Notes: generated from the letters alone by a model not told the origin. A stretch of DNA of 32,000 nucleotides from Pyrobaculum calidifontis JCM 11548 (GCF_000015805.1 NC_009073.1:180001-212000), one strand, 5' to 3'. Shown: positions 475 through 31,279, counted from the first letter of the stretch. Program-made: numbers and translations.

Positions 475-641
475 TATATTGAATATTTTGCCTACTTGCA
501 CGCAAGTAGGGCGGTGTTGCTATGTCGTTTTTACGCGCCGTCGCCCCCTTCGCCTACTTGCATCGCAAGTAGGCAAGGCGCCTCCCCCACCAAGAAAAAC
601 GGCGACCTACTTGCAAACAAGTAGGCAACTCGTTCAATATA
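475..641. promoter_or_regulatory. array of three CCTACTTG-N4/5-CAAGTAGG palindromes flanked by inverted TATA-like elements (putative operator array / paired promoters)
   Basis: Palindromes are at 491-510, 553-573 and 606-625. The outer inverted repeat is tatattgaa (475-483) / ttcaatata (633-641), each 7 nt from the nearest palindrome. Dyad centres are 62.5 and 52.5 bp apart. Confidence 0.6.
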
Positions 642-663: not shown

Positions 664-852
664 GTGGATCACTCGGCCGACGTGGCTAGGGCTGTGGCGG
701 CCGGCGTCTTGGGGGTGTACATTGTGTGGAGGGCGGCGTCGGTGCTCATGGGCCGGGAGCATCTGGGCGCGGCGGGGGCGAGGTGGTTGAGGAGTTTCTT
801 GCGTGGACCGTGGTCTTCGCCGCGGTTACGCAGTAGTTGCCCAGCGGCTTAG
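664..852 (+). CDS. hypothetical small protein (one hydrophobic segment)
   Basis: GTG 664 lies about 27 nt downstream of the TATA-like ttcaatata (633-641), the leaderless spacing seen elsewhere in the window. The ORF has 62 codons with the hydrophobic stretch VARAVAAGVLGVYIVWRAASVL. It is Ala/Gly/Arg-rich, so it may be a GC-driven ORF. It overlaps the next ORF by 16 nt. Confidence 0.35.
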   Translation: MDHSADVARAVAAGVLGVYIVWRAASVLMGREHLGAAGARWLRSFLRGPWSSPRLRSSCPAA

Positions 853-1208
853 GACGTGGGAAGAAGAACTTGACGGTGGCTAGTCGGGAGCCGCATGTGG
901 AGGCGGCTGAGCGTGAGCTGACTCATAGGCTGTACTCTCTGGGCATCGACGTTGAGCCCTCCGTGTTGGCCGCCTACGTGGAGAGGTACGGCGAAAAGGC
1001 TTTCAACGCCGTGGTGAGAGATGTGGCCAAGGCCCTTGCCGCCTCGTACCGTGTGCCATACGCCGCCGGCGAGGCGGAGGAGTTGATGAAGGAAGTATGT
1101 CCTAGAACAAGCGTCAGCCGCCCTCAGGGCGGCAAAGGAGGCGGCGGCCAGGGGAGAAGACGTGAGAGAAGTCTTAAGGCACATTCTACAACAATAGGCT
1201 ATACGTAA
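837..1208 (+). CDS. hypothetical protein
   Basis: A 123-codon ORF starting at TTG 837 (in-frame alternatives TTG 870, GTG 876, GTG 897). Composition is balanced (LGIDVEPSVLAAYVERYGEKAFNAVVRDVAKAL) with a Gly/Arg-rich tail. The antisense ORF 849..1265 is L/S/R/H-rich and looks like a shadow. No family recognised. Confidence 0.55.
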   Translation: MPSGLGRGKKNLTVASREPHVEAAERELTHRLYSLGIDVEPSVLAAYVERYGEKAFNAVVRDVAKALAASYRVPYAAGEAEELMKEVCPRTSVSRPQGGKGGGGQGRRRERSLKAHSTTIGYT

Positions 1209-1845: not shown

Positions 1846-2508
1846 ATGTCAGTAAACCGGGCTCTTCTCGCCATCCTGATCATTTACCACGTCCTCTTCC
1901 TAGCGTTTCTGCCAGTGGGCAAGCCCCCCTACTCAGAGGCCCTGCTCGGCTACCTTGCGGCGTATCCGCTAATCTACTTGATATACCTAATTGCCGTCTC
2001 GCCGCACGGCAAGGATATAGAAGTGGGGCCCGAGGTGGCGGTGGGGTTCGCTCTCGTGTACCTACTGATCTACGCGCCCCTCCTCGCTATAGGGCGCGGG
2101 TGGGACGAGGAGCCGGGCGCGTGGGCCGAATACATCGTCAGCTTCCTCATAGCCATATTTGGGGCTCTTGTTTACGCCCTCTTAGACCCCAATGTTAAGC
2201 CCCAAGACCGCGCCCGGCTTATCCGCGCCGTCGCCCCCCTCTTGGTGCTACACGCGGTATACGCCCTCGCGGCCCTCTTCGCCGACCGCCCAGTGCTGTG
2301 GTACTTTGCCACATACCCCGCGGCGCTGGCCGCGGCTGCGGCTGGCGGCGGGAGGCTGCCCACGCTGGCCGCAACAGCCATCTACCTAGCCGCATATCTG
2401 CTAGACGCCGTGCCGCTTCTACTCCTGCTAATAGCCGTGCCAGTGGCGTGGCGCCCAGCCGCCGAGCGGGCCGATTTGCATGCGGCAGCTGAGCGGCGCC
2501 AGGGATAG
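1846..2508 (+). CDS. polytopic integral membrane protein, function unknown
   Basis: A 220-aa ORF. The in-frame stop at 1837-1839 makes ATG 1846 the first possible start. It has at least 6 long hydrophobic segments (LAILIIYHVLFLAFL, LAAYPLIYLIYLIAV, FALVYLLIYAPLLAI, IVSFLIAIFGALVYALL, LLVLHAVYALAALF, AIYLAAYLLDAVPLLLLLIAVPV). Confidence 0.75.
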   Translation: MSVNRALLAILIIYHVLFLAFLPVGKPPYSEALLGYLAAYPLIYLIYLIAVSPHGKDIEVGPEVAVGFALVYLLIYAPLLAIGRGWDEEPGAWAEYIVSFLIAIFGALVYALLDPNVKPQDRARLIRAVAPLLVLHAVYALAALFADRPVLWYFATYPAALAAAAAGGGRLPTLAATAIYLAAYLLDAVPLLLLLIAVPVAWRPAAERADLHAAAERRQG

Positions 2509-3965: not shown

Positions 3966-4270
3966 CCGCCCGCGGGTCGGCAGGGTGCGCCAAGCCCCAC
4001 ACCTTACACACCCCATGCCACGTCGGTCCCCCTGGCGTCGACAAAGACATGCGGCAGTTGCCAGTGCGAAGCTCGGCCTAGCCTACGCGCCGCACCGCCT
4101 ATGTACTGACGTTAACCTTTTCGCTTTAGGGCTAAACCGCCGCGTGTCCGCCCACGTCGCCGCCTCACAAACAATCTTCATCGAAACGTGAGACCTTTGC
4201 CGGCAGTCGTCTCTACTTAGCCGCCTTCAATAGCCCGCCCCCAGAGCTGCCGCGAGTCTCGCAGATAATG

Positions 4271-4278
4271 TTTTTAAA
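4271..4278 (+). promoter_or_regulatory. TATA box of the tRNA gene
   Basis: tttttaaa is centred about 25 nt upstream of tRNA position 1 (4299). Confidence 0.5.
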
Positions 4279-4298
4279 CGTGGGAGATAGTTAGAACT

Positions 4299-4410
4299 GC
4301 GGCGGTAGCTCAGCCTGGTTGGAGCGCCCTGGGGCCACGCCCCGCGCAAGGCTCATAAAGGGGCAACCCATGCACCCGGGAGGACCCGGGTTCAAATCCC
4401 GGCCGCCGCA
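4299..4410 (+). tRNA. tRNA with anticodon CAU (elongator Met or Ile2-type), two predicted introns
   Basis: Perfect stems: acceptor gcggcgg/ccgccgc, D stem gctc/gagc, T arm ccggg-ttcaaat-cccgg. Removing 4330-4349 (20 nt) and 4359-4375 (17 nt) gives the anticodon arm cccgg-ctcataa-ccggg and a 75-nt cloverleaf with discriminator A. G1:C72 and the anticodon stem argue against an initiator. Confidence 0.88.
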
Positions 4411-4430
4411 TGCTCCCGTTTTACCACTTC

Positions 4431-5168
4431 CTAGCTAACTACAATTTCAAAGCCAGCATTGCCAGGCGGCGGTGGTGACTGGTCTGTAGCTTGTTTCTGC
4501 GGTTGCTTAAGGCCGAAGGCGCCTATTAGAGAAAAGATGTACCCAACCATTATTATAAAATAGCCGACGAATATGACAGAAATCCACGCCCCTATCCATA
4601 TCAACTTAGCCGCCGTATTAAAGGCGCCCACTCCCCCCACCTCACCCAGCCTCCTAAAAGCCCGCCTCAGGAAGTATGACGATACGACGAGAAAGGGCCA
4701 CGACAAAATCAAAAATCCGAGGTAGAGGAGGAGGGGATCCGTCGCAAGTCCCAGCGCCACAGCTATGTCTAATACGCCCTTTTTCTCCAACTCCCTCACC
4801 TCAGCAAATTCCTTGAGAAAGTCGGCGTATATCACATACATGTATATTAATGAGACAATGAAAGAGTAAAGCGAGTTCTTAAAAATATCTCTACTCCTAT
4901 ACCACTCAGCCAAGTAATACACTCCGGCCAACCACACGGCATTAGACAAGAGAAACGTGGCTCCATAGTCATATTCAAACGTAAAATTGCCAATAACGCC
5001 GGCTATGAGACCTGCTATAAAGAGCCACTTTGCATGCTCAAATTTCATACCCACAGACTCCACGGCATCTACAAACGCCAACAATATATCTATTCCGGTA
5101 ATGTCGCCGAGTACAACTGACACAGTAGAACCCCAGCGTACTAAATCGCGAGAAACTGTTATTGACAC
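4431..5168 (-). CDS. polytopic membrane protein (DUF996-like pattern), AT-rich
   Basis: A 245-aa ORF with GTG start and about 6 hydrophobic segments. The duplicated pattern LAGVYYLAEWYRSRDIFKNSLYSFIV and FNTAAKLIWIGAWISVIFVGYFIIMVGYIFSLIGAF resembles archaeal DUF996 membrane proteins from memory (not verified). The C-terminal tail is Pro/Gln-rich. A hand-counted line (4861-4920) is 35% GC. Confidence 0.7.
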   Translation of the reverse strand: MSITVSRDLVRWGSTVSVVLGDITGIDILLAFVDAVESVGMKFEHAKWLFIAGLIAGVIGNFTFEYDYGATFLLSNAVWLAGVYYLAEWYRSRDIFKNSLYSFIVSLIYMYVIYADFLKEFAEVRELEKKGVLDIAVALGLATDPLLLYLGFLILSWPFLVVSSYFLRRAFRRLGEVGGVGAFNTAAKLIWIGAWISVIFVGYFIIMVGYIFSLIGAFGLKQPQKQATDQSPPPPGNAGFEIVVS

Positions 5169-5453
5169 TTAAATGAGCCAGCGCGAGATTCCTTTCTCGC
5201 CTATTGGTGTTCCACGACGTAATCTAATGCCTGTCTAAGGGAGACTTCAAGACCCCCGACTAGGCGCGATGAGCGTTTCTTCGCCGTCATCCTCAATCCC
5301 ATCCAGCACCGCGCCCCGGCCTTTCAACGTGCACCAAGCCCACGCCAGGCCCTCCACGGCATCGTTACCAGAGTGCTGAAAGCCACGTCAGCAAGGTTCT
5401 AGGCTAAGGGCGACCGTGGCCTAGACTAGACAAGAGCCGGGAGGTTTTATACC

Positions 5454-8400
5454 CTAGACTTGGGAGTAATAAAGCTTATACGCCGCCTTAAGCACTTCGT
5501 CGGTAATGCAGTTGCCTACGGTCGTTTCCTCCAGCGCCTTGGCCAATTCACGGAACAAGCGGCCGTGGAGACCATTACTCGATGAACCATGCCTAGACGT
5601 CACCTTCGCCAGGTTAAGACCCCACTCCTCGCCTCTCTCACAATAGGCCAGGCCAACTAGGGCAGATAAGAAGAGCTTCCCAGAATCTAACGTGGTCCAA
5701 GTCAACGCCTTTTCTGCCTCTTGGCCATACTTCTCTTCAATAGACCTCGTGGCGGCTTCGGCATCGCCTTCGGCAAATAGGCCGGCATCAACCGCCTCGT
5801 ACAACACTTCGACAAACTTTGGCAGATTAGCCCTGGCCCACTCGGGGAGGTACTCCACGGCCTTTCCCAAATACCTTCCATCTAAGAGGGAGAGGACGCC
5901 GTAGGTGAGGGCCGATGCGTCGAGGTCGCGCTCTAACGCCCACCCCCACTCCTCCAACACCTTCTTTACGTCGCTGAGGCGGCCCACAGAGGCCAGGGCC
6001 ACTACATAGTGGCCAAGCGCGTTGGCAATCGCCTCTACGCCAAGACTGTTAACGTCTTGCAACGCCCTCAGCCATGCCCTTTCAAACTCTTCAACGGGAG
6101 GGGCACCCTCTTTAACAGCCTTTAGCCTCGCCAACAGACTACACGATGCGACTTCATAGTATACTTCCCCAGACTCCATAGCCAGTTCGTATGACAATTT
6201 TGCATGTTTTGCGGCTTTCTCTAAGTCGTCAGCGACCATATAAGCGAAGGCCACGTGATAGTGGACATATGCGCTGAGACCACTAAGCTCCTTCCTCAGG
6301 TCTGGCCTTATTTGCATCACCCTCAGATACTCCCACAACTTCTCCTCAGTTGACACTCTGTCTTCAGTGTAGGATCGCTTAAGCTCTTCCAACGCTCCCA
6401 CCGCTTTGTCTGCAAATTTCTCCGCTTTGCTTACTTCGTCAAATAGAGAATACCAATAGGCAAGCCGCGGATGTAAAAGCGCTACGGCATACGCTTTTTC
6501 AACATCGTTAAGTCGTGATACAAACTCCTCCACGCGTTTAGCCAGTTCTTTAAACGTCTCCCATGGCTCTACCTGCGTGTTCAACGACCCAGCGGCAACA
6601 ATAAGTCCCACTGGCGAGACAAGTGCGTAGAGGAGCGTGTTGAGGAGCCACAACTTGGCAACGTTGGAACCTGCGTTGTATAATGCGGCAAAGCGTTGAG
6701 CCAGAGGCGCTTGACTGTCTTTTGCAATCGTGAAAAAGAATAGCAGACCAACAGGCGAGCTTCTGGCAACGTTGTGAGTCGCCATAGCTAGCCAGTCGGC
6801 AAGCCGCGAAGACGCCCTCCCACTTTCGACTCTGCGCCAAGCCTCAGCGAGCGGCGGCTCTACACCGTGTAAAAGTTGTGTTGAGACGCTTGCAAATCTT
6901 CCAAATACATAATCGAGCAGTCTTACGACATTCTCTAGCTCCTCGTCTGTGGCGTTACTCCAGTCGCCAGTTGCCGCAATACCCACGGCTCGCCAAAGGT
7001 CTACATGAGTATAGAAACCTCTTTCCTCAACCTCCTTTGCGATTACCACGGCCCTCTTGGCCAGTTTCCTACTCCCCTCCTTCAGATTAAAGAAAAGGTA
7101 TGGCCCCACAGCGTTGGTTCTTTCATCGCCAACAAAGAACCAATCTTCCAGTGGCTTCAGCAAGCGGCTCCAGTCTGGCAATACCGCCAGTCCATATAGT
7201 GCCGACAAGATGTCCAACTCGTCTACGACGCTTTCGACTATCTCAATGCCCCAGGGCGTCTTAGTCTCATATCTTATCTTCCAGCGCCCGTCCTCGGCTA
7301 CACCGTTGAAGGCTTGTAGGAAGTTGTCGATGAGGTAGTCTATTTGCCGCATGCCAGCGGGCCCAGGGGCTTTGAACTTTTCTGCGATAACCTTGGCGTA
7401 CTCCACTGCCATCTCCTCTATTCCGCTGTACCTCCTCCGCGGGACCCCTACAAGTGCCTCCGCACAAATCTCCACGAGGCGGCACGGCCCCTCCGCGCTA
7501 CCCTGGCACAGCTCGTCGTCTCCAACGCCGAACCGCCTATAGACGGCGCCGTGGGCCACCTTTCGTATTGTCTCGTAGAGAGTGCCGTGTAGCGGCTGAG
7601 AAAACCACAGCACTACCGCCTCCTCTGGCTCTTTGCCGAATACCCTTATGACGGCCTTTGCCAGCTTGGGTGGGTGTGGGCCAAAGAGGCCGGTGGCGAG
7701 GATTAGGGGCGCAACTTGCCTGGCAGTTGCCTCATCGCCTCCCAACACCACGTGCCAGAGGTAGGCGAGCGCCAGAGAGTAGACGTCCAGCCTCTTCACC
7801 GCCTCTGCCACCTTCGCCGGGTCTCTCCACTCCTCGTAAAGCGCTCTTGCCAAGGCGGCGGCAACGGCGTAGAACTCGCCCCTGTACCGCTCAAGGACGG
7901 CCTCAGCCACGGCGTCGGGCACGCCCCTCAAAATCCCCCTCACAAGGGCCTCGGCCTCGCCGCCCATACAAACCGCCTCAGCGCCCACGAGGTTGGCCAC
8001 GTCCTCGTAGGCCCGGTAGTCCTCCTCAGTGAGAACCACTACAGTGGGCACTCTGAGGAGGGCCGCGTCGTGTAGAAAGTCGGCAAGGGGCTTGGCATGG
8101 GCCATGGCGCTGTACATCACATCTATGCCCTCACCACGTCTCCTGTATCCCCCGACCTCAAGTGTGTCGTAGTAGAGGACTGGGACAAAGGGCCCATCCC
8201 GTAGCCGCGCAGCCGCCCTCAGGGCCTCTTTCCAGTCCTCGCCCACTCGCACCACTACCACCGCTCTGTCCGGTTGGGCTTTCGCGAAGTCGTATATGGC
8301 CTTGAGGGCTACTGTGCTCTTCCCAACGCCCCTCGGCCCACACACCACTACGACGCGGCCGCTGGAGAGGGCCCGGCGCACTTCGTCCTCAACCCCCACC

Positions 8401-8873
8401 TCCACGTACTCCACAGGTCCGAAGGGACTATTCACGAGGAGGCGGCCGCCCTCCTCCACGAACACTTGCCCAAGGTCGAGGAGGTGGGGGCTAAGCCGCC
8501 TCAACAGTTCGAGGCCCTCCCCGAGCCGTTTCAATCTCTCCTCCAGCTTGGCGAGGTCTACCTCGGGCAGTGCGGCCAAGTTTTTGACGAGTGTCCTAAG
8601 CCACTCCTCGCTTACCCCGAGCTTCTCCGCCGCCCTCTTGACCTCCTCGTCGCACCGCCCTGTGCTCTTCGCGGCCTTTATGAGCTCCACGAGCTCACCC
8701 GCGAGACCGGGCCTGCTTAGGTCAGCCACAAGCTCCGCGACCTCCGCGAGGGAAGAGACAAACGGCAAGGCCCCCGCCAGAAGCTTGACAACCTTAAAAA
8801 AGCGATCCCCTCTCTCCGTCAACAGCCGGCCAAGAGGCCCCGCCGCCAGCCTCTCATAAAACTCACAGGACAT
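5454..8873 (-). CDS. large P-loop NTPase with N-terminal helical domain and C-terminal TPR-like helical repeats (STAND-like architecture)
   Basis: An uninterrupted 1139-aa ORF. Walker A GPRGVGKST is encoded at 8313-8339 (aa 179-187). Candidate Walker B is VLYYD (aa 233-236) or VVVLTEED (aa 278-285). About 170 aa of helical, Leu/Glu-rich sequence precede the P-loop. About 800 aa of helical-repeat-like sequence follow (e.g. VHYHVAFAYMVADDLEKAAKHAKLSYELAMESGEVYYEVASCSLLARL). TATA-like cttttaaa (complement of 8895-8902) is about 25 nt upstream of ATG 8873. Confidence 0.85.
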   Translation of the reverse strand: MSCEFYERLAAGPLGRLLTERGDRFFKVVKLLAGALPFVSSLAEVAELVADLSRPGLAGELVELIKAAKSTGRCDEEVKRAAEKLGVSEEWLRTLVKNLAALPEVDLAKLEERLKRLGEGLELLRRLSPHLLDLGQVFVEEGGRLLVNSPFGPVEYVEVGVEDEVRRALSSGRVVVVCGPRGVGKSTVALKAIYDFAKAQPDRAVVVVRVGEDWKEALRAAARLRDGPFVPVLYYDTLEVGGYRRRGEGIDVMYSAMAHAKPLADFLHDAALLRVPTVVVLTEEDYRAYEDVANLVGAEAVCMGGEAEALVRGILRGVPDAVAEAVLERYRGEFYAVAAALARALYEEWRDPAKVAEAVKRLDVYSLALAYLWHVVLGGDEATARQVAPLILATGLFGPHPPKLAKAVIRVFGKEPEEAVVLWFSQPLHGTLYETIRKVAHGAVYRRFGVGDDELCQGSAEGPCRLVEICAEALVGVPRRRYSGIEEMAVEYAKVIAEKFKAPGPAGMRQIDYLIDNFLQAFNGVAEDGRWKIRYETKTPWGIEIVESVVDELDILSALYGLAVLPDWSRLLKPLEDWFFVGDERTNAVGPYLFFNLKEGSRKLAKRAVVIAKEVEERGFYTHVDLWRAVGIAATGDWSNATDEELENVVRLLDYVFGRFASVSTQLLHGVEPPLAEAWRRVESGRASSRLADWLAMATHNVARSSPVGLLFFFTIAKDSQAPLAQRFAALYNAGSNVAKLWLLNTLLYALVSPVGLIVAAGSLNTQVEPWETFKELAKRVEEFVSRLNDVEKAYAVALLHPRLAYWYSLFDEVSKAEKFADKAVGALEELKRSYTEDRVSTEEKLWEYLRVMQIRPDLRKELSGLSAYVHYHVAFAYMVADDLEKAAKHAKLSYELAMESGEVYYEVASCSLLARLKAVKEGAPPVEEFERAWLRALQDVNSLGVEAIANALGHYVVALASVGRLSDVKKVLEEWGWALERDLDASALTYGVLSLLDGRYLGKAVEYLPEWARANLPKFVEVLYEAVDAGLFAEGDAEAATRSIEEKYGQEAEKALTWTTLDSGKLFLSALVGLAYCERGEEWGLNLAKVTSRHGSSSNGLHGRLFRELAKALEETTVGNCITDEVLKAAYKLYYSQV

Positions 8874-9184
8874 TTAGGTCGGACAGAATAGTCGTTTAAA
8901 AGTGCATCGTAATGGCGTTTTACCAAGGCTAGTCGCTTATACTCTGATCGTGGAGATAGCGCTTTAAGCGTTGCAAGAATAAACGTGGGAAATTATTCAA
9001 CACGAAATTTAGATGAGACCACGAGCACTCAGTTCTCTTCTCGCCGTGGTTACTGCAAGGGCGACGAAGAGGGGACGCGTTAACGCGGCGAGGGGGCCGA
9101 ATAAGCCGTTGAAAAACGCCTTGAAGCCTCAGCCGTGCCGTCCGCACAACACTTTACGGCGACGTCTACGAACAAGTCGACTAG

Positions 9185-9448
9185 GCCGCCGGGTTCCACG
9201 AGGCCCCAATCACCTCTTCACAGCCGCCAGATGCGGCCACGAGACTACAGATACAGAAGTATACGGTTAAGGCGGATAGGCCGCTCAACGACCTTGAGAG
9301 GAGGATCGCGGCCGGCCTTCTCTATGCGGCTAGGCTTGAGGGGGACCCGAGGCTGTACATCTTGGACGACGCGTACGGCTTTCTCGCGGTGGAGGAGTTT
9401 CTGAGGGAGTGGCTGGCCGTGGCGAGGCCGTACGTCGTCGCGGTAAAC
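9185..9448 (+). pseudogene. coding-like ORF remnant lacking any ATG/GTG/TTG start
   Basis: The frame is open from the stop at 9182-9184 to TAA 9449-9451. It translates to ...YTVKADRPLNDLERRIAAGLLYAARLEGDPRLYILDDAYGFLAVEEFLREWLAVARPYVVAVN, which is protein-like. There is no canonical start before codon TTG 9362. The other two frames here are Arg/Pro-rich junk. Confidence 0.3.
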
Positions 9449-9622
9449 TAATACCCAGACGTGGACATGTTGCTGGCCTTCCAGCCTATAGTCATTGCCC
9501 CAGGAGCCGCGCCCTACTACCGCGCGCCGACCCCCGCCACTACGTTGTACAGCAAACCACAAGCCAATAGCCAAAATACCCCTCCACGAGATTAAGCGGC
9601 TGGCCCAATGACCCCCTTTCTC

Positions 9623-10225
9623 CTACTTATCTTGCTGACCGCCCCCGCCCTCCCTGCTACACTGAGGCGATGGCTCTGCCTTACGTTCACTTTGTCCAAA
9701 CAGCGATTGAAGTGCTGGAAGAGACGCTCCGACAAGAGTTATACCACCTAACAAGAAGTTAAGTAATATTCCGATATAGAAACTTGTAATATCTCTAAAA
9801 TCGTTAGCAATGTCTGTGTCTGTTAAGTCAATAATCAAGTTGGTAACCATAATAAAAAGCGTCGCCACCAATCCTGAAGAAGTAAAAGAAGCCCCCCATA
9901 CGAAGAATACTAGCATAGGTCTCGAAGACGCTTCTATTTTCTTACTGCTTATTCTCTCGGAGAGCTCATAGTACGTTATATAGAAAACCATTAAGAATAA
10001 AAACAAAATTATCATCTCCAAGTATGCTCGAGGCGTTAATACAAAAGATCGAGATAAACCAATGATTACGATCATGGCTAGTATAACAAAACCTATGAAA
10101 GTAATCTCAAGGAGATGCTTTACAGCCCACCTTATTATTTTACTATCATATGCGCCTCTAGACATGTCGAGTTTTTTAAGTTTCGGTATATAAGGCTTAA
10201 ACTCGGAGAGGATACAGTCAGCCAT
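9623..10225 (-). CDS. small polytopic membrane protein, strongly AT-rich
   Basis: A 200-aa ORF with 4-5 hydrophobic segments (ITFIGFVILAMIVIIGL, MIILFLFLMVFYITYY, LVFFVWGASFTSSGLVATLFIMV, FYIGILLNFLLGGITLVGA) and a charged C-terminal tail. Hand-counted lines are 27% GC (9961-10020) and 30% GC (9781-9840), against 55-70% in neighbouring genes. Confidence 0.7.
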   Translation of the reverse strand: MADCILSEFKPYIPKLKKLDMSRGAYDSKIIRWAVKHLLEITFIGFVILAMIVIIGLSRSFVLTPRAYLEMIILFLFLMVFYITYYELSERISSKKIEASSRPMLVFFVWGASFTSSGLVATLFIMVTNLIIDLTDTDIANDFRDITSFYIGILLNFLLGGITLVGASLPALQSLFGQSERKAEPSPQCSREGGGGQQDK

Positions 10226-31050: not shown

Positions 31051-31101
31051 ATGTGAACAATGTGCGCCCTATAAAAACGTTATCGCGCCGCGGAGCCCGC
31101 A

Positions 31102-31183
31102 GATTCCCTCCCCATTCCGGGGGGACATCTCCACGGGCCCCAGGGCCATCGGCGGCGGATTCCCTCCCCTTTCTGGGGGGACA
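31102..31183. repeat. two 26-nt hairpin-forming direct repeats, 56-nt period
   Basis: The copies are gattccctccccATTCCggggggaca (31102-31127) and gattccctccccTTTCTggggggaca (31158-31183), 24/26 identical. Both differences fall in the 5-nt loop of a ctcccc/gggggg stem. Confidence 0.7.
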
Positions 31184-31279
31184 CATCCGCCTACCTCACA
31201 CATAAGAACTTTGCTCATCTTTAAAAGCCTTGTGATAGACTTCGTAGACGAGAGTGGGGCAAAGTCCTTCTGACACTGC

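What the first reader, a model, noticed from the sequence alone, without database searches (positions are those of the whole stretch)
5454..8873. Orphan 1139-aa STAND-like NTPase with an uncharacterised N-terminal helical domain: candidate conflict/immunity sensor
Seen directly: a single ORF with the Walker A motif GPRGVGKST (nt 8313-8339). About 170 aa of Leu/Glu/Ala-rich helical sequence precede it, with no motif I recognise. About 800 aa of helical-repeat (TPR-like) sequence follow it. The Walker B is atypical (VLYYD or VVVLTEED rather than a clear hhhhDE). Established knowledge: this tripartite layout (N-terminal effector or adaptor, central P-loop switch, C-terminal repeat sensor) defines STAND NTPases. 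Many of these act as antiviral or cell-death sensors in prokaryotes (Avs/NLR-like). Inference: the gene sits next to a tRNA in mosaic DNA and is flanked on both sides by small AT-rich polytopic membrane proteins (4431..5168 and 9623..10225) that could be effectors or unrelated cargo. This makes it the best candidate in the window for an undescribed defence-type system. The N-terminal domain would be the novel part.
Basis: partly seen in the sequence, partly recalled or inferred. Interest (0 to 1): 0.75.

Follow-up and report, generated by a model that had tools for sequence, protein, structure and literature searches.

The report
Hypervariable archaeal STAND-like NTPase gene
This Pyrobaculum calidifontis gene encodes an uncharacterised NLR/STAND-type ATP switch with a TPR-like arm; its relatives are unusually variable genes sitting among restriction, DISARM and CRISPR loci, so it is a credible but untested antiviral sensor of hyperthermophilic archaea.

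Summary
ORF 5454..8873 (-) encodes 1139 aa with Walker A GPRGVGKST at nt 8313-8339, and an intron-containing tRNA lies at 4299-4410. The window is Pyrobaculum calidifontis JCM 11548; the protein is ABO07629.1 / WP_011848886.1 / A3MSL2, with no informative name and no paper found.

The query passes no Pfam, PADLOC or PDB threshold. A small Thermoproteota-only superfamily (220 of 1.84 billion representatives) links it to STAND families: 33 of 48 distant relatives hit AAA_16 and 27 hit nSTAND3. AlphaFold plus Foldseek gives an AAA+/STAND core and a TPR-like solenoid.

The N-terminal 135-aa helical domain matches no family. It holds an HTH-like motif and a hydrophobic segment.

Seven of eleven homologue loci carry recognised defence elements within 10 kb. 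In six loci, backbone genes are 90-96% identical while the NTPases are 44-70%. dN/dS against the orthologue is 0.23.

The two flanking membrane proteins do not co-occur with the family. An upstream P-loop partner gene survives only as a pseudogene.

Verdict: probably a new clade of defence-type STAND sensor. Effector, trigger and immune function itself are untested.

The parts
5454..8873 (-). Complete gene for the 1139-aa STAND-like NTPase (P. calidifontis ABO07629.1 / WP_011848886.1 / A3MSL2)
   Evidence: ORF; exact match to the NCBI/UniProt records; dN/dS 0.225 against the orthologue in L001
8895..8901 (-). TATA-like box TTTTAAA centred about 25 nt upstream of the ATG; fits a leaderless stand-alone transcript
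   Evidence: Read directly from the sequence; function inferred from established knowledge of archaeal promoters
8469..8873 (-). N-terminal helical domain, aa 1-135 (7 predicted helices); no known family; candidate output or adaptor module
   Evidence: AlphaFold pLDDT 74-87; only sub-threshold Pfam hits; conserved across the wider superfamily, profile positions about 20-150
8736..8792 (-). Hydrophobic Gly/Ala-rich segment, aa 28-46 (VVKLLAGALPFVSSLAEVA)
   Evidence: Kyte-Doolittle 19-residue mean 1.63 in the query and up to 2.33 at the equivalent place in long-form paralogues
8574..8654 (-). Helix-turn-helix-like motif, aa 74-100 (DEEVKRAAEKLGVSEEWLRTLVKNLAA) with invariant A82
   Evidence: Alignments; weak HTH_Tnp_1 (E 0.0035, 3 of 11 members) and DnaB_bind (4 of 11, best 3.1e-5) on this stretch
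7959..8468 (-). P-loop NTPase core, aa 136-305 (beta-hairpin, then five beta-alpha units)
   Evidence: AlphaFold secondary structure; Foldseek to AAA+ and STAND NBDs
8313..8339 (-). Walker A GPRGVGKST (K185)
   Evidence: Invariant G179, G182, G184 and K185
8166..8183 (-). Walker B, aa 231-236 PVLYYD; D236 invariant, followed by T or P (no second acidic residue)
   Evidence: Alignment and strand assignment
7074..7958 (-). Helical domains plus a three-stranded beta element (aa 306-600); likely the HD/WHD-type linker of STAND proteins. Contains invariant GPHPPK (aa 398-403, nt 7665-7682) and CX7CX5C (C456, C464, C470; nt 7464-7508)
   Evidence: long Foldseek alignments to NOD2, NLRP9, MalT and NRC2. 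The domain assignment is inferred
5457..7073 (-). C-terminal all-alpha TPR-like solenoid (aa 601-1139); candidate ligand sensor
   Evidence: AlphaFold pLDDT mostly 80-97; Foldseek to TPR proteins and to the STAND-TPR protein 6mfv; 56-62% identity across all subfamilies
9230..9608 (+). Pseudogene remnant (3' half, aa 138-265) of a ~270-aa AAA_16-type P-loop gene that is the divergent neighbour of family members in L007 and L011
   Evidence: tblastn 85% identity; in-frame stop and frameshifts; intact copies in L007 and L011
4299..4410 (+). Intron-containing tRNA (context only; marks the conserved side of the locus)
   Evidence: Rfam RF00005, 44.7 bits; collinear with L001

Best explanation
The gene encodes a single-chain, NLR/Avs-like innate immune sensor of a Thermoproteota-specific STAND clade. 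Shown: it has a P-loop NTPase core of AAA+/STAND fold, a following helical region and a large TPR-like solenoid. It is under purifying selection. Its relatives are hypervariable genes embedded among defence systems. Inferred mechanism: in the resting state the C-terminal solenoid holds the NTPase in an ADP-bound or closed state. Binding of an invader-derived ligand, most likely a viral protein, to the solenoid releases this. ATP binding at K185/D236 then drives oligomerisation, with slow or no hydrolysis because Walker B has only one acidic residue. Oligomerisation clusters the N-terminal helical domains, which are the output. No enzymatic effector domain is present. So the output is most likely proximity-induced action of the N-terminal bundle itself: DNA binding through its HTH-like motif, membrane insertion of its hydrophobic helix, or recruitment of a partner. 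The result would be growth arrest or abortive infection. The ~270-aa P-loop neighbour seen in L007 and L011 may be an accessory; it has decayed in P. calidifontis.
For: Fold and family: Walker A and B are invariant. The domain model aa 130-600 matches NOD2, several NLRP proteins, MalT, NRC2 and archaeal SSO1545 at E 4e-5 to 4e-4. The highest query-normalised TM scores (0.32-0.37) belong to STAND proteins, against 0.24-0.30 for most classical AAA+ hits. The full model matches TPR solenoids, the archaeal STAND-TPR protein 6mfv and NLRP9. By transitive homology, 220 superfamily representatives share profile positions about 20-480. Of 48 scanned, 33 hit AAA_16 (best 1e-8), 27 nSTAND3 (1.5e-7), 9 ATPase_2, 5 nSTAND5, 4 NB-ARC and 2 NACHT. 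P0117 passes the nSTAND3 cut-off in the homologous region. Defence context: L005 has DrmA 4.9e-140, DrmB 3.5e-47, DrmC 1.4e-31 and a methylase; L003 a type IIG RM, 3.1e-105; L007 type I S and M subunits; L006 DndC-like, 1.1e-29. L009 has a DrmA/DpdJ-like helicase and a Cas4-like nuclease. L011 has type I RM. L004 has a CRISPR array of at least 31 repeats starting 1.4 kb away. Hypervariability: backbone genes are 90-96% identical while family NTPases are 44-70% and the neighbouring 1465-aa paralogues 44-78%. Within the short-form subgroup the solenoid (56-62%) evolves faster than the NTPase (77%). Paralogue clusters and a tandem fusion (P0006) exist. Patchy distribution: no relative was found in GTDB species genomes, IMG/VR, INPHARED or PLSDB. 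The gene looks functional: dN/dS 0.225, intact length equal to the orthologue, and a TATA-like box.
Against: No experiment exists. The query passes no curated threshold: nSTAND3 scores 23.9 against 27.2 bits, and no Avs or other STAND model of PADLOC matches beyond the P-loop. Foldseek cannot separate STAND from classical AAA+; MgsA and MuB are the top hits at 1.3e-5 and 2.9e-5. No recognisable effector domain is present. The window's own neighbours are transporters, membrane proteins and metabolic genes, not defence genes. The context loci come from only two metagenome samples and fall into about five layout types, so they are not independent. Several loci also look like mobile-element backbones (HerA/FtsK-like, ParA-like, KaiC-like genes), so association with mobile elements rather than with defence is not excluded. 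Between the two orthologues the sensor shows no excess of non-synonymous change (dN/dS 0.16-0.21). The putative partner gene is a pseudogene here.
Confidence: 0.5

Rival explanations
1. It is a STAND-type signal-transducing transcription regulator, functionally like MalT, AfsR or other AAA_16 regulators. The solenoid senses a metabolite or protein, ATP-driven oligomerisation follows, and the N-terminal HTH-like motif binds DNA to control nearby or island genes.
For: AAA_16, the commonest Pfam hit in the superfamily (33 of 48), is to my knowledge the family of MalT- and AfsR-type regulators. MalT (8bob_C) is among the fold matches, TM 0.35. The N-terminal domain carries a conserved HTH-like stretch with invariant A82 and weak HTH_Tnp_1 hits. 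No enzymatic effector is present.
Against: The HTH hits are far below threshold (E 0.0035 at best, 3 of 11 members). No conserved target operon exists, since neighbours differ between layout types. Regulators of fixed operons are not expected to be 44-70% identical in a 90-96% identical backbone. Paralogue clustering and defence-island context fit immunity better.
Confidence: 0.15
2. It is a mobile-element gene serving the element rather than the host, for example in exclusion of rival elements, partition or maintenance, or as an AAA+ loader- or initiator-like factor. The P. calidifontis copy would be a leftover of a decayed island.
For: Six loci share a backbone with HerA/FtsK-like, ParA-like, KaiC/Rad51-like and DUF87 ATPases. 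The fold hits include MuB, the clamp-loader delta subunit, MgsA and ORC, and there are weak DnaB_bind hits. The window holds other island remnants: the AAA_16 pseudogene at 9230-9608 and a fragment at 837-1208 of a 1236-aa protein of L004. The gene lies near a tRNA in low-GC DNA.
Against: No homologue occurs in any deposited virus or plasmid or in IMG/VR. No integrase and no att repeat are present in the window. A 540-aa TPR-like solenoid is not a feature of loaders or initiators (established knowledge). The gene is kept under purifying selection at the same chromosomal site in two strains after its neighbours decayed. Exclusion of rival elements would itself be a conflict function, which overlaps the main explanation.
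Confidence: 0.13
3. It is a non-functional or function-shifted relic of a former two-gene system (the ~270-aa P-loop protein plus the STAND-like protein) whose partner has decayed, and it is inert in this genome.
For: The partner is intact and divergently adjacent in L007 and L011 (92% identical to each other). In the window it is truncated, with a stop and frameshifts, and it is reduced to a remnant in L001.
Against: dN/dS is 0.225 over 1139 codons, with no disruption in two lineages that both lack the partner. Most family members (layouts of L002-L006, L009, L010, L012) have no such partner, so it is not obligatory.
Confidence: 0.08
4. It is a housekeeping scaffold or chaperone-type AAA+ protein unrelated to conflict.
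For: Foldseek lists ClpB, Hsp104, ClpC and FtsH modules at E 1e-4 to 1e-3 and generic solenoid scaffolds such as IFT-A and TTC7.
Against: There is a single NBD, no Pfam AAA (PF00004) match, and a patchy, lineage-restricted distribution with only 220 representatives in 1.84 billion. No copy was found in other species genomes. The neighbourhoods are variable and the sequences hypervariable.
Confidence: 0.04

Closest known systems
Antiviral STAND NTPases (Avs1-5 and the wider defence-associated STAND clades of Gao and co-workers; PMC13581612)
   Same: Single large polypeptide with an N-terminal module, a central P-loop switch and a C-terminal TPR-like sensor of more than 400 aa. Located near RM, DISARM and CRISPR loci. 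Each clade is dominated by one sensor type, as here, where the solenoid is 56-62% identical across subfamilies.
   Different: No Avs model of PADLOC matches. No nuclease, Sir2, protease or other recognised effector is present. Walker B has a single acidic residue. The family is restricted to hyperthermophilic Thermoproteota. No trigger is known.
Pfam nSTAND3 (PF20720), the NTPase type of Avs5 (bioRxiv 10.1101/2025.07.08.663546)
   Same: It is the best Pfam neighbour of the query (E 3.8e-5) and matches 27 of 48 superfamily relatives. Avs5 also pairs nSTAND3 with TPR-type repeats.
   Different: The query scores 23.9 bits against a cut-off of 27.2, and only residues 156-219 around the P-loop align. 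Avs5 carries an N-terminal Sir2 effector, which is absent here.
Archaeal STAND-TPR protein, PDB 6mfv, and the MalT/AAA_16 (MNS-type) STANDs
   Same: NTPase followed by helical domains and TPR repeats in an archaeal protein. 6mfv is the best STAND match of the full model (E 3.6e-4), MalT 8bob matches the domain model, and AAA_16 matches 33 of 48 relatives.
   Different: TM scores are low (0.19-0.35) and identity is 12-13%. There is no significant sequence match to any PDB chain, even with a profile. The context is conflict-type rather than a regulated operon.
Eukaryotic NLRs (NOD2, NLRP9, NLRP7, NLRP14, plant NRC2)
   Same: Foldseek alignments of about 400-480 columns over the NBD and the following helical domains. 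Paralogue expansion, tandem arrays and hypervariability relative to neighbours resemble the genetics of NLR genes.
   Different: TPR-like rather than LRR sensor. No CARD, PYD, TIR or CC domain is detected (the weak Atypical_Card hit at E 0.13 is not meaningful). Homology beyond the shared ASCE/STAND core is not shown.

Membership tests
STAND NTPase superfamily (Leipe et al. 2004 definition, recalled from knowledge) | Walker A GxxxxGK[ST] in an ASCE-type alpha/beta core | tested here: met
   GPRGVGKST, invariant G179, G182, G184 and K185; five beta-alpha units in the AlphaFold model
STAND NTPase superfamily (Leipe et al. 2004 definition, recalled from knowledge) | Walker B hhhhD followed by a second acidic residue (DD or DE) | tested here: not met
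   PVLYYD236 is followed by T or P in all 26 members. The Asp itself is invariant, so Mg-nucleotide binding is plausible but a catalytic base is not evident.
STAND NTPase superfamily (Leipe et al. 2004 definition, recalled from knowledge) | NBD followed by a helical domain and a winged-helix domain (NBD-HD-WHD module) | tested here: inconclusive
STAND NTPase superfamily (Leipe et al. 2004 definition, recalled from knowledge) | Significant profile match to a curated STAND family (AAA_16, nSTAND1-6, NB-ARC, NACHT, ATPase_2) | tested here: inconclusive
   The query is below every gathering score (best nSTAND3, 23.9 against 27.2 bits). It is linked at E<=1e-30 to relatives, of which 33 of 48 hit AAA_16 and 27 of 48 hit nSTAND3 at E<=0.01. 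One relative passes the nSTAND3 cut-off.
STAND NTPase superfamily (Leipe et al. 2004 definition, recalled from knowledge) | C-terminal superstructure-forming repeats | tested here: met
   All-alpha solenoid aa 601-1139; Foldseek to TPR proteins at probability 1.0; weak Pfam TPR hits in relatives
STAND NTPase superfamily (Leipe et al. 2004 definition, recalled from knowledge) | Ligand-induced, nucleotide-dependent oligomerisation | not testable with these tools
   Needs biochemistry or cryo-EM
Known antiviral STAND systems (Avs1-5 and others in PADLOC-DB 2.0) | Match to a system model, and a recognised effector domain | tested here: not met
   Only P-loop-level hits: PDC-S01 4.3e-5, mad8 2.5e-4. 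No effector family in Pfam.
Known antiviral STAND systems (Avs1-5 and others in PADLOC-DB 2.0) | Enrichment next to known defence genes | tested here: met
   Seven of eleven homologue loci. The sample is small, comes from two metagenomes and has no background control. The window's own locus lacks defence genes.
Pfam nSTAND3 (PF20720) | Score at or above the gathering threshold of 27.2 bits | tested here: not met
   23.9 bits, residues 156-219 against model positions 1-62 of 155
DEAD/DEAH box helicase (one of the names NCBI gives WP_011848886.1) | Helicase motifs I-VI, including DEAD/DEAH motif II and a Helicase_C domain | tested here: not met
   Pfam DEAD at E 0.036 covers only aa 167-207 (P-loop). 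No Helicase_C match, and Walker B is YYDT. The name is not supported.
Classical AAA+ (Clp/Hsp100, clamp loader, MgsA) | Pfam AAA (PF00004) or a related model; Walker B DE; ring-forming module with an arginine finger | tested here: inconclusive
   Fold similarity to MgsA (1.3e-5), MuB and the clamp loader, but no PF00004 hit for the query and no DE. Arginine finger and ring formation could not be tested.

The most novel reading that the evidence does not exclude
The conserved N-terminal helical module (HTH-like motif, coiled coil and hydrophobic Gly/Ala helix) is a new kind of STAND output domain specific to hyperthermophilic Thermoproteota. It would act without any enzyme, by oligomerisation-driven DNA or chromatin binding or by membrane insertion. 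The family, together with the co-located 1465-aa paralogues and the HerA/FtsK-like gene, would form a multi-receptor immune hotspot carried on a crenarchaeal genomic island, with receptor alleles exchanged by recombination at the gene's 3' end.
Probability: 0.2. Interest if true: 0.7.

Novelty: new member of a known kind. Interest (0 to 1): 0.5.

Why it matters
In my reading, innate immunity of Thermoproteota (Crenarchaeota) beyond CRISPR and restriction has had little experimental study. Of the papers read here, the Avs5 study works in Pseudomonas aeruginosa and the 2026 STAND survey is titled for bacterial receptors. This gene gives a concrete, intact, single-gene candidate in a cultivated aerobic hyperthermophile, P. 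calidifontis. It also defines a lineage-restricted superfamily of about 220 representative proteins that no Pfam, PADLOC or PDB entry describes. If it is a sensor, its trigger would reveal which archaeal-virus component is recognised at near-boiling temperature. Its effector-less N-terminal domain could be a new output module. The sharp contrast between 90-96% identical backbone genes and 44-70% identical receptors also offers a natural system for studying how immune-receptor alleles are exchanged in archaea.

Tried and rejected
1. Integrated element bounded by the tRNA: no direct repeat of the tRNA of 12 nt or more anywhere in the window, and no integrase among ORFs of 150 aa or more. Rejected as an intact element.
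2. Flanking membrane proteins as effectors: no co-occurrence outside the orthologous contig. Rejected.
3. Virus- or plasmid-borne gene: no hit in IMG/VR by pattern scan, or in INPHARED or PLSDB by tblastn.
4. Other species genomes: two scans of GTDB representatives found nothing. These are pattern-based, and the source genome's own copy was not returned, so the region is presumably masked there.
5. Metagenome-contig scan: one short locus only, L008.
6. Search with aa 1-460 alone: the word prefilter returned only 3 hits, two of them split-gene fragments. Uninformative.
7. PDB by sequence and by profile: nothing better than E 0.02.
9. N-terminal domain identity: Pfam scan of 11 N-terminal regions gave only weak DnaB_bind, HTH_Tnp_1 and Atypical_Card hits. 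No assignment made.
10. Supplementary tables of the 2026 STAND survey are not held, so I could not check whether Pyrobaculum or Thermofilum relatives fall in one of its 589 clades.
11. The 'DEAD/DEAH helicase' annotation: rejected.

Full report
OBSERVATION. The ORF is exactly as described: 5454..8873 on the minus strand, ATG start, 1139 aa. Walker A GPRGVGKST occupies aa 179-187, which is nt 8313-8339. G179, G182, G184 and K185 are invariant in a 26-sequence family alignment.

Exact look-up identifies the window as Pyrobaculum calidifontis JCM 11548. The protein is ABO07629.1 / WP_011848886.1 / UniProt A3MSL2. The sources call it 'hypothetical protein', 'Uncharacterized protein' or 'DEAD/DEAH box helicase family protein'. 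The helicase name rests on nothing more than the P-loop: Pfam DEAD has E 0.036 over aa 167-207 only. No paper in the searchable library mentions the accessions.

An intron-containing tRNA lies at 4299-4410 (+) by Rfam (44.7 bits). ARAGORN missed it. A TTTTAAA box lies at 8895-8901, about 25 nt upstream of the ATG. That fits a leaderless archaeal transcript; this step is an inference from established knowledge.

ANATOMY. AlphaFold2 with the family alignment gives a confident model (mean pLDDT 80.5). Its parts, in order:
- Seven helices, aa 4-127.
- A beta-hairpin, aa 138-155.
- A five-unit beta-alpha core: beta1 174-179 with the P-loop, beta2 204-209, beta3 229-236, beta4 277-282, beta5 299-302.
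- Helical domains to about aa 520.
- A three-stranded beta element, aa 525-550.
- An uninterrupted alpha-solenoid to the C-terminus.

VVVLTEED is beta4, the sensor-1 position. Walker B is atypical in all members, because the Asp is followed by Thr or Pro and never by a second acidic residue.

Other invariant features are GPHPPK at aa 398-403 and three cysteines spaced CX7CX5C (C456, C464, C470). By position, GPHPPK could correspond to the GxP motif of NB-ARC-type helical domains. That is my inference and was not tested.

WHAT FAMILY. The query passes no curated threshold. In Pfam the best match is nSTAND3 at 23.9 bits against a cut-off of 27.2, covering only aa 156-219. PADLOC gives only P-loop-level hits. 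NCBIfam gives nothing meaningful. PDB gives nothing by sequence or by profile.

An exhaustive profile search of 1.84 billion representatives finds just 220 proteins at E<=1e-3, and 71 at E<=1e-30. About ten clusters match end to end. Roughly 150 more share only profile positions ~20-480, which span the N-terminal helices, the NTPase and the first helical domain. These are proteins of 1400-1490 aa with other C-termini, or short forms of 350-450 aa.

Named members come only from hyperthermophilic Thermoproteota: Infirmifilum, Thermofilum, Pyrobaculum sp. and Fervidicoccaceae. All are 'hypothetical'.

Scanning 48 of these distant relatives against Pfam gave the following:

| Pfam family | Members matching (of 48) | Best E-value |
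|---|---|---|
| AAA_16 | 33 | 1e-8 |
| nSTAND3 | 27 | 1.5e-7 |
| ATPase_2 | 9 | 6.8e-7 |
| nSTAND_NTPase5 | 5 | 1.9e-5 |
| NB-ARC | 4 | 0.00057 |
| NACHT | 2 | 0.00083 |

One relative, P0117, passes the nSTAND3 cut-off in the homologous region.

A separate AlphaFold model of aa 130-600 (pLDDT 73) was searched against PDB with Foldseek. It matches classical AAA+ modules: MgsA at 1.3e-5, MuB at 2.9e-5, and clamp-loader subunits. It also matches STAND proteins: NOD2 at 3.9e-5, NLRP9, NLRP14, NLRP7, archaeal SSO1545, MalT and NRC2. The highest query-normalised TM scores (0.32-0.37) belong to STAND proteins.

The full model matches TPR solenoids, the archaeal STAND-TPR protein 6mfv (E 3.6e-4) and NLRP9.

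THE N-TERMINAL DOMAIN. It matches no family. A Pfam scan of 11 N-terminal regions gives only weak, scattered hits: DnaB_bind in 4 of 11 (best 3.1e-5), HTH_Tnp_1 in 3 of 11 (0.0035) and Atypical_Card in 2 of 11 (0.13). All fall on one stretch.

That stretch, aa 74-100 (DEEVKRAAEKLGVSEEWLRTLVKNLAA), has the look of a helix-turn-helix and contains the invariant A82. A coiled-coil-like ELEERL segment follows. Upstream lies a hydrophobic Gly/Ala-rich segment, with a Kyte-Doolittle 19-residue mean of 1.63 in the query and up to 2.33 in long-form paralogues.

Long-form paralogues add a further 200-300 aa N-terminal alpha/beta region of unknown family. What that domain does is not shown.

GENOMIC SETTING IN THE WINDOW. 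The window is a cellular chromosome. It encodes AOR, acyl-CoA dehydrogenase, QueC, a CN-hydrolase, a CoA-transferase and a TRAP transporter.

Against the orthologous metagenome contig L001 the window is collinear at 88% nucleotide identity from 2641 to exactly 8873. That span covers the MFS transporter, the tRNA, the DUF996 gene and the NTPase. Beyond the start codon the two sequences differ. GC falls to 0.49-0.55 over 4000-7000.

No tRNA-derived repeat of 12 nt or more exists anywhere in the window.

Upstream, 9230-9608 (+) is the 3' half of a ~270-aa AAA_16-type P-loop gene. It is 85% identical to the intact gene of L007, but here it has an in-frame stop and frameshifts. In L007 and L011 that gene is the divergent immediate neighbour of a family member.

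ORF 837-1208 is a fragment of the C-terminus of a 1236-aa protein that neighbours a family member in L004. So the locus looks like the eroded edge of an island in which the NTPase has been kept.

dN/dS against L001 is 0.225 overall and 0.16-0.40 by domain.

DUF996 and the 200-aa protein match only L001 among the loci.

GENOMIC SETTING OF RELATIVES. Eleven further loci were read. Seven carry recognised defence elements within 10 kb:

| Locus | Defence element | Evidence |
|---|---|---|
| L005 | Complete DISARM set | DrmA 4.9e-140, DrmB 3.5e-47, DrmC 1.4e-31, plus a methylase |
| L003 | Type IIG restriction-modification | 3.1e-105 |
| L007 | Type I restriction-modification | S and M subunits |
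| L011 | Type I restriction-modification | Pfam families |
| L006 | DndC-like | 1.1e-29 |
| L009 | DrmA/DpdJ-like helicase plus Cas4-like nuclease | 5.6e-32 |
| L004 | CRISPR array, at least 31 repeats | Starts 1.4 kb from the gene |

Superfamily paralogues cluster. L002 and L010 each hold three within 12 kb, and P0006 is a tandem fusion of 1976 aa.

The most telling result concerns six loci (L002, L003, L004, L005, L010, L012). In each, the gene immediately downstream of the NTPase is the same HerA/FtsK-like gene at 92-96% identity. It is full-length in L004 and L012 and 5'-truncated in the other four. Other backbone genes are 90-94% identical. Yet the family NTPases are only 44-70% identical and the nearby 1465-aa paralogues 44-78%.

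Within the family the conservation is mosaic:

| Region | Identity within short forms | Identity between short and long forms |
|---|---|---|
| N-terminal domain and NTPase core | 71-77% | 23-27% |
| Solenoid (aa 481-1139) | 56-62% | 56-62% |

This pattern implies module exchange. Hypervariable genes in a conserved backbone are what conflict genes look like.

Three caveats apply. All these contigs come from two samples and fall into about five layouts. There is no background control. And the backbone (HerA-like, ParA-like, KaiC-like genes) may itself be a mobile element.

MECHANISM. Shown: the fold class, the nucleotide-binding motifs, purifying selection, and the context and variability of relatives.

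Inferred: this is a ligand-gated STAND switch. The solenoid senses an invader component. ATP binding at K185/D236 drives oligomerisation, with weak hydrolysis expected from the single-Asp Walker B. The clustered N-terminal helical domains then deliver the output. Because no enzymatic effector exists, the output would be DNA binding, membrane insertion or partner recruitment.

I put 0.5 on this defence-sensor reading. The rivals are a MalT/AfsR-like regulator (0.15), a mobile-element function (0.13), an inert relic (0.08) and a housekeeping AAA+ or scaffold protein (0.04).

COMPARISON AND NOVELTY. A 2026 survey counts 589 prokaryotic STAND clades, 198 of them defence-associated, mostly with TPR-like sensors (PMC13581612). 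Avs5 combines nSTAND3 with TPR-type repeats and a Sir2 effector.

The present protein works like these on the evidence available, but it is not a member of any described family. Whether the survey already contains its Thermofilum or Pyrobaculum relatives could not be checked.

I rate it a new member of a known kind, with an unassigned N-terminal module. The interest is moderate. It is an untested but concrete immune-receptor candidate in a cultivable hyperthermophile.

Noticed in passing
window 9230-9608 (+): Pseudogene: the 3' half of a ~270-aa AAA_16-type P-loop gene (GPPGSGKT in intact copies), 85% identical to the L007 copy, with an in-frame stop and at least two frameshifts. Intact copies sit divergently next to family NTPases in L007 and L011, and a weaker remnant lies in L001 at 2421-2617.
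   Followed up: yes
window 837-1208 (+); L004 17507-21217 (-): The 123-aa ORF is a fragment homologous to the C-terminal end of a 1236-aa, N-terminally hydrophobic protein that neighbours family member P0031 in L004 (84% nucleotide identity over 346 bp). It is another sign of an eroded island in the window.
   Followed up: partly
window 4299-4410 (+): A 112-nt tRNA found by Rfam (44.7 bits) but missed by ARAGORN, so it probably carries one or more archaeal introns. The loop CTCATAA suggests anticodon CAT, but I did not verify this.
   Followed up: partly
L004 15206-17200: CRISPR array of at least 31 copies of the 24-nt repeat CTTTCAATCCTCTTCTTGAGATTC with spacers of about 41 nt. It is not annotated in the gene table and starts 1.4 kb from the STAND-like gene.
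   Followed up: partly
L002 6034-16037; L003 14275-24278; L005 13978-22895; L010 5669-11781: A recurrent module downstream of family members: a 5'-truncated HerA/FtsK-like gene, a thymidylate-kinase-like gene (PADLOC PDC-M51B, 1.4e-9), a convergent 1465-aa STAND-like paralogue, then ParA-like and DUF87/HerA genes. It may be a mobile-element backbone or a multi-gene conflict system.
   Followed up: partly
window 7464-7508 (-), aa 456-470: A conserved CX7CX5C motif (C464 and C470 invariant, C456 at 90% or more) in a low-confidence loop of the linker region. It could be a metal site or a disulfide; intracellular disulfides are known in Pyrobaculum (established knowledge).
   Followed up: no
window 1846-2508 (+); L006 13993-14649 (-): The 220-aa polytopic membrane ORF is 34% identical to a 218-aa gene lying just downstream of family member P0008 in L006. 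This is a weak second link between this window and other family loci.
   Followed up: no
window 5454-8873 (-): One NCBI name for WP_011848886.1, 'DEAD/DEAH box helicase family protein', is unsupported. Only the P-loop aligns (Pfam DEAD E 0.036), and there is no motif II or Helicase_C domain.
   Followed up: yes
P0006 (1976 aa); P0038+P0033 and P0039+P0028 contigs: One family member is a head-to-tail fusion of two complete copies. Two others are split into N- and C-terminal ORFs on the same contig. The family therefore shows frequent duplication, fusion and decay.
   Followed up: partly
window 491-510 and 606-625; 31099-31132 and 31155-31188: Two pairs of short direct repeats. One is a 20-nt palindromic unit, CCTACTTGCACGCAAGTAGG, repeated 115 nt apart. 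The other is a 34-nt unit repeated 56 nt apart at 85% identity. Their meaning is unknown.
   Followed up: no
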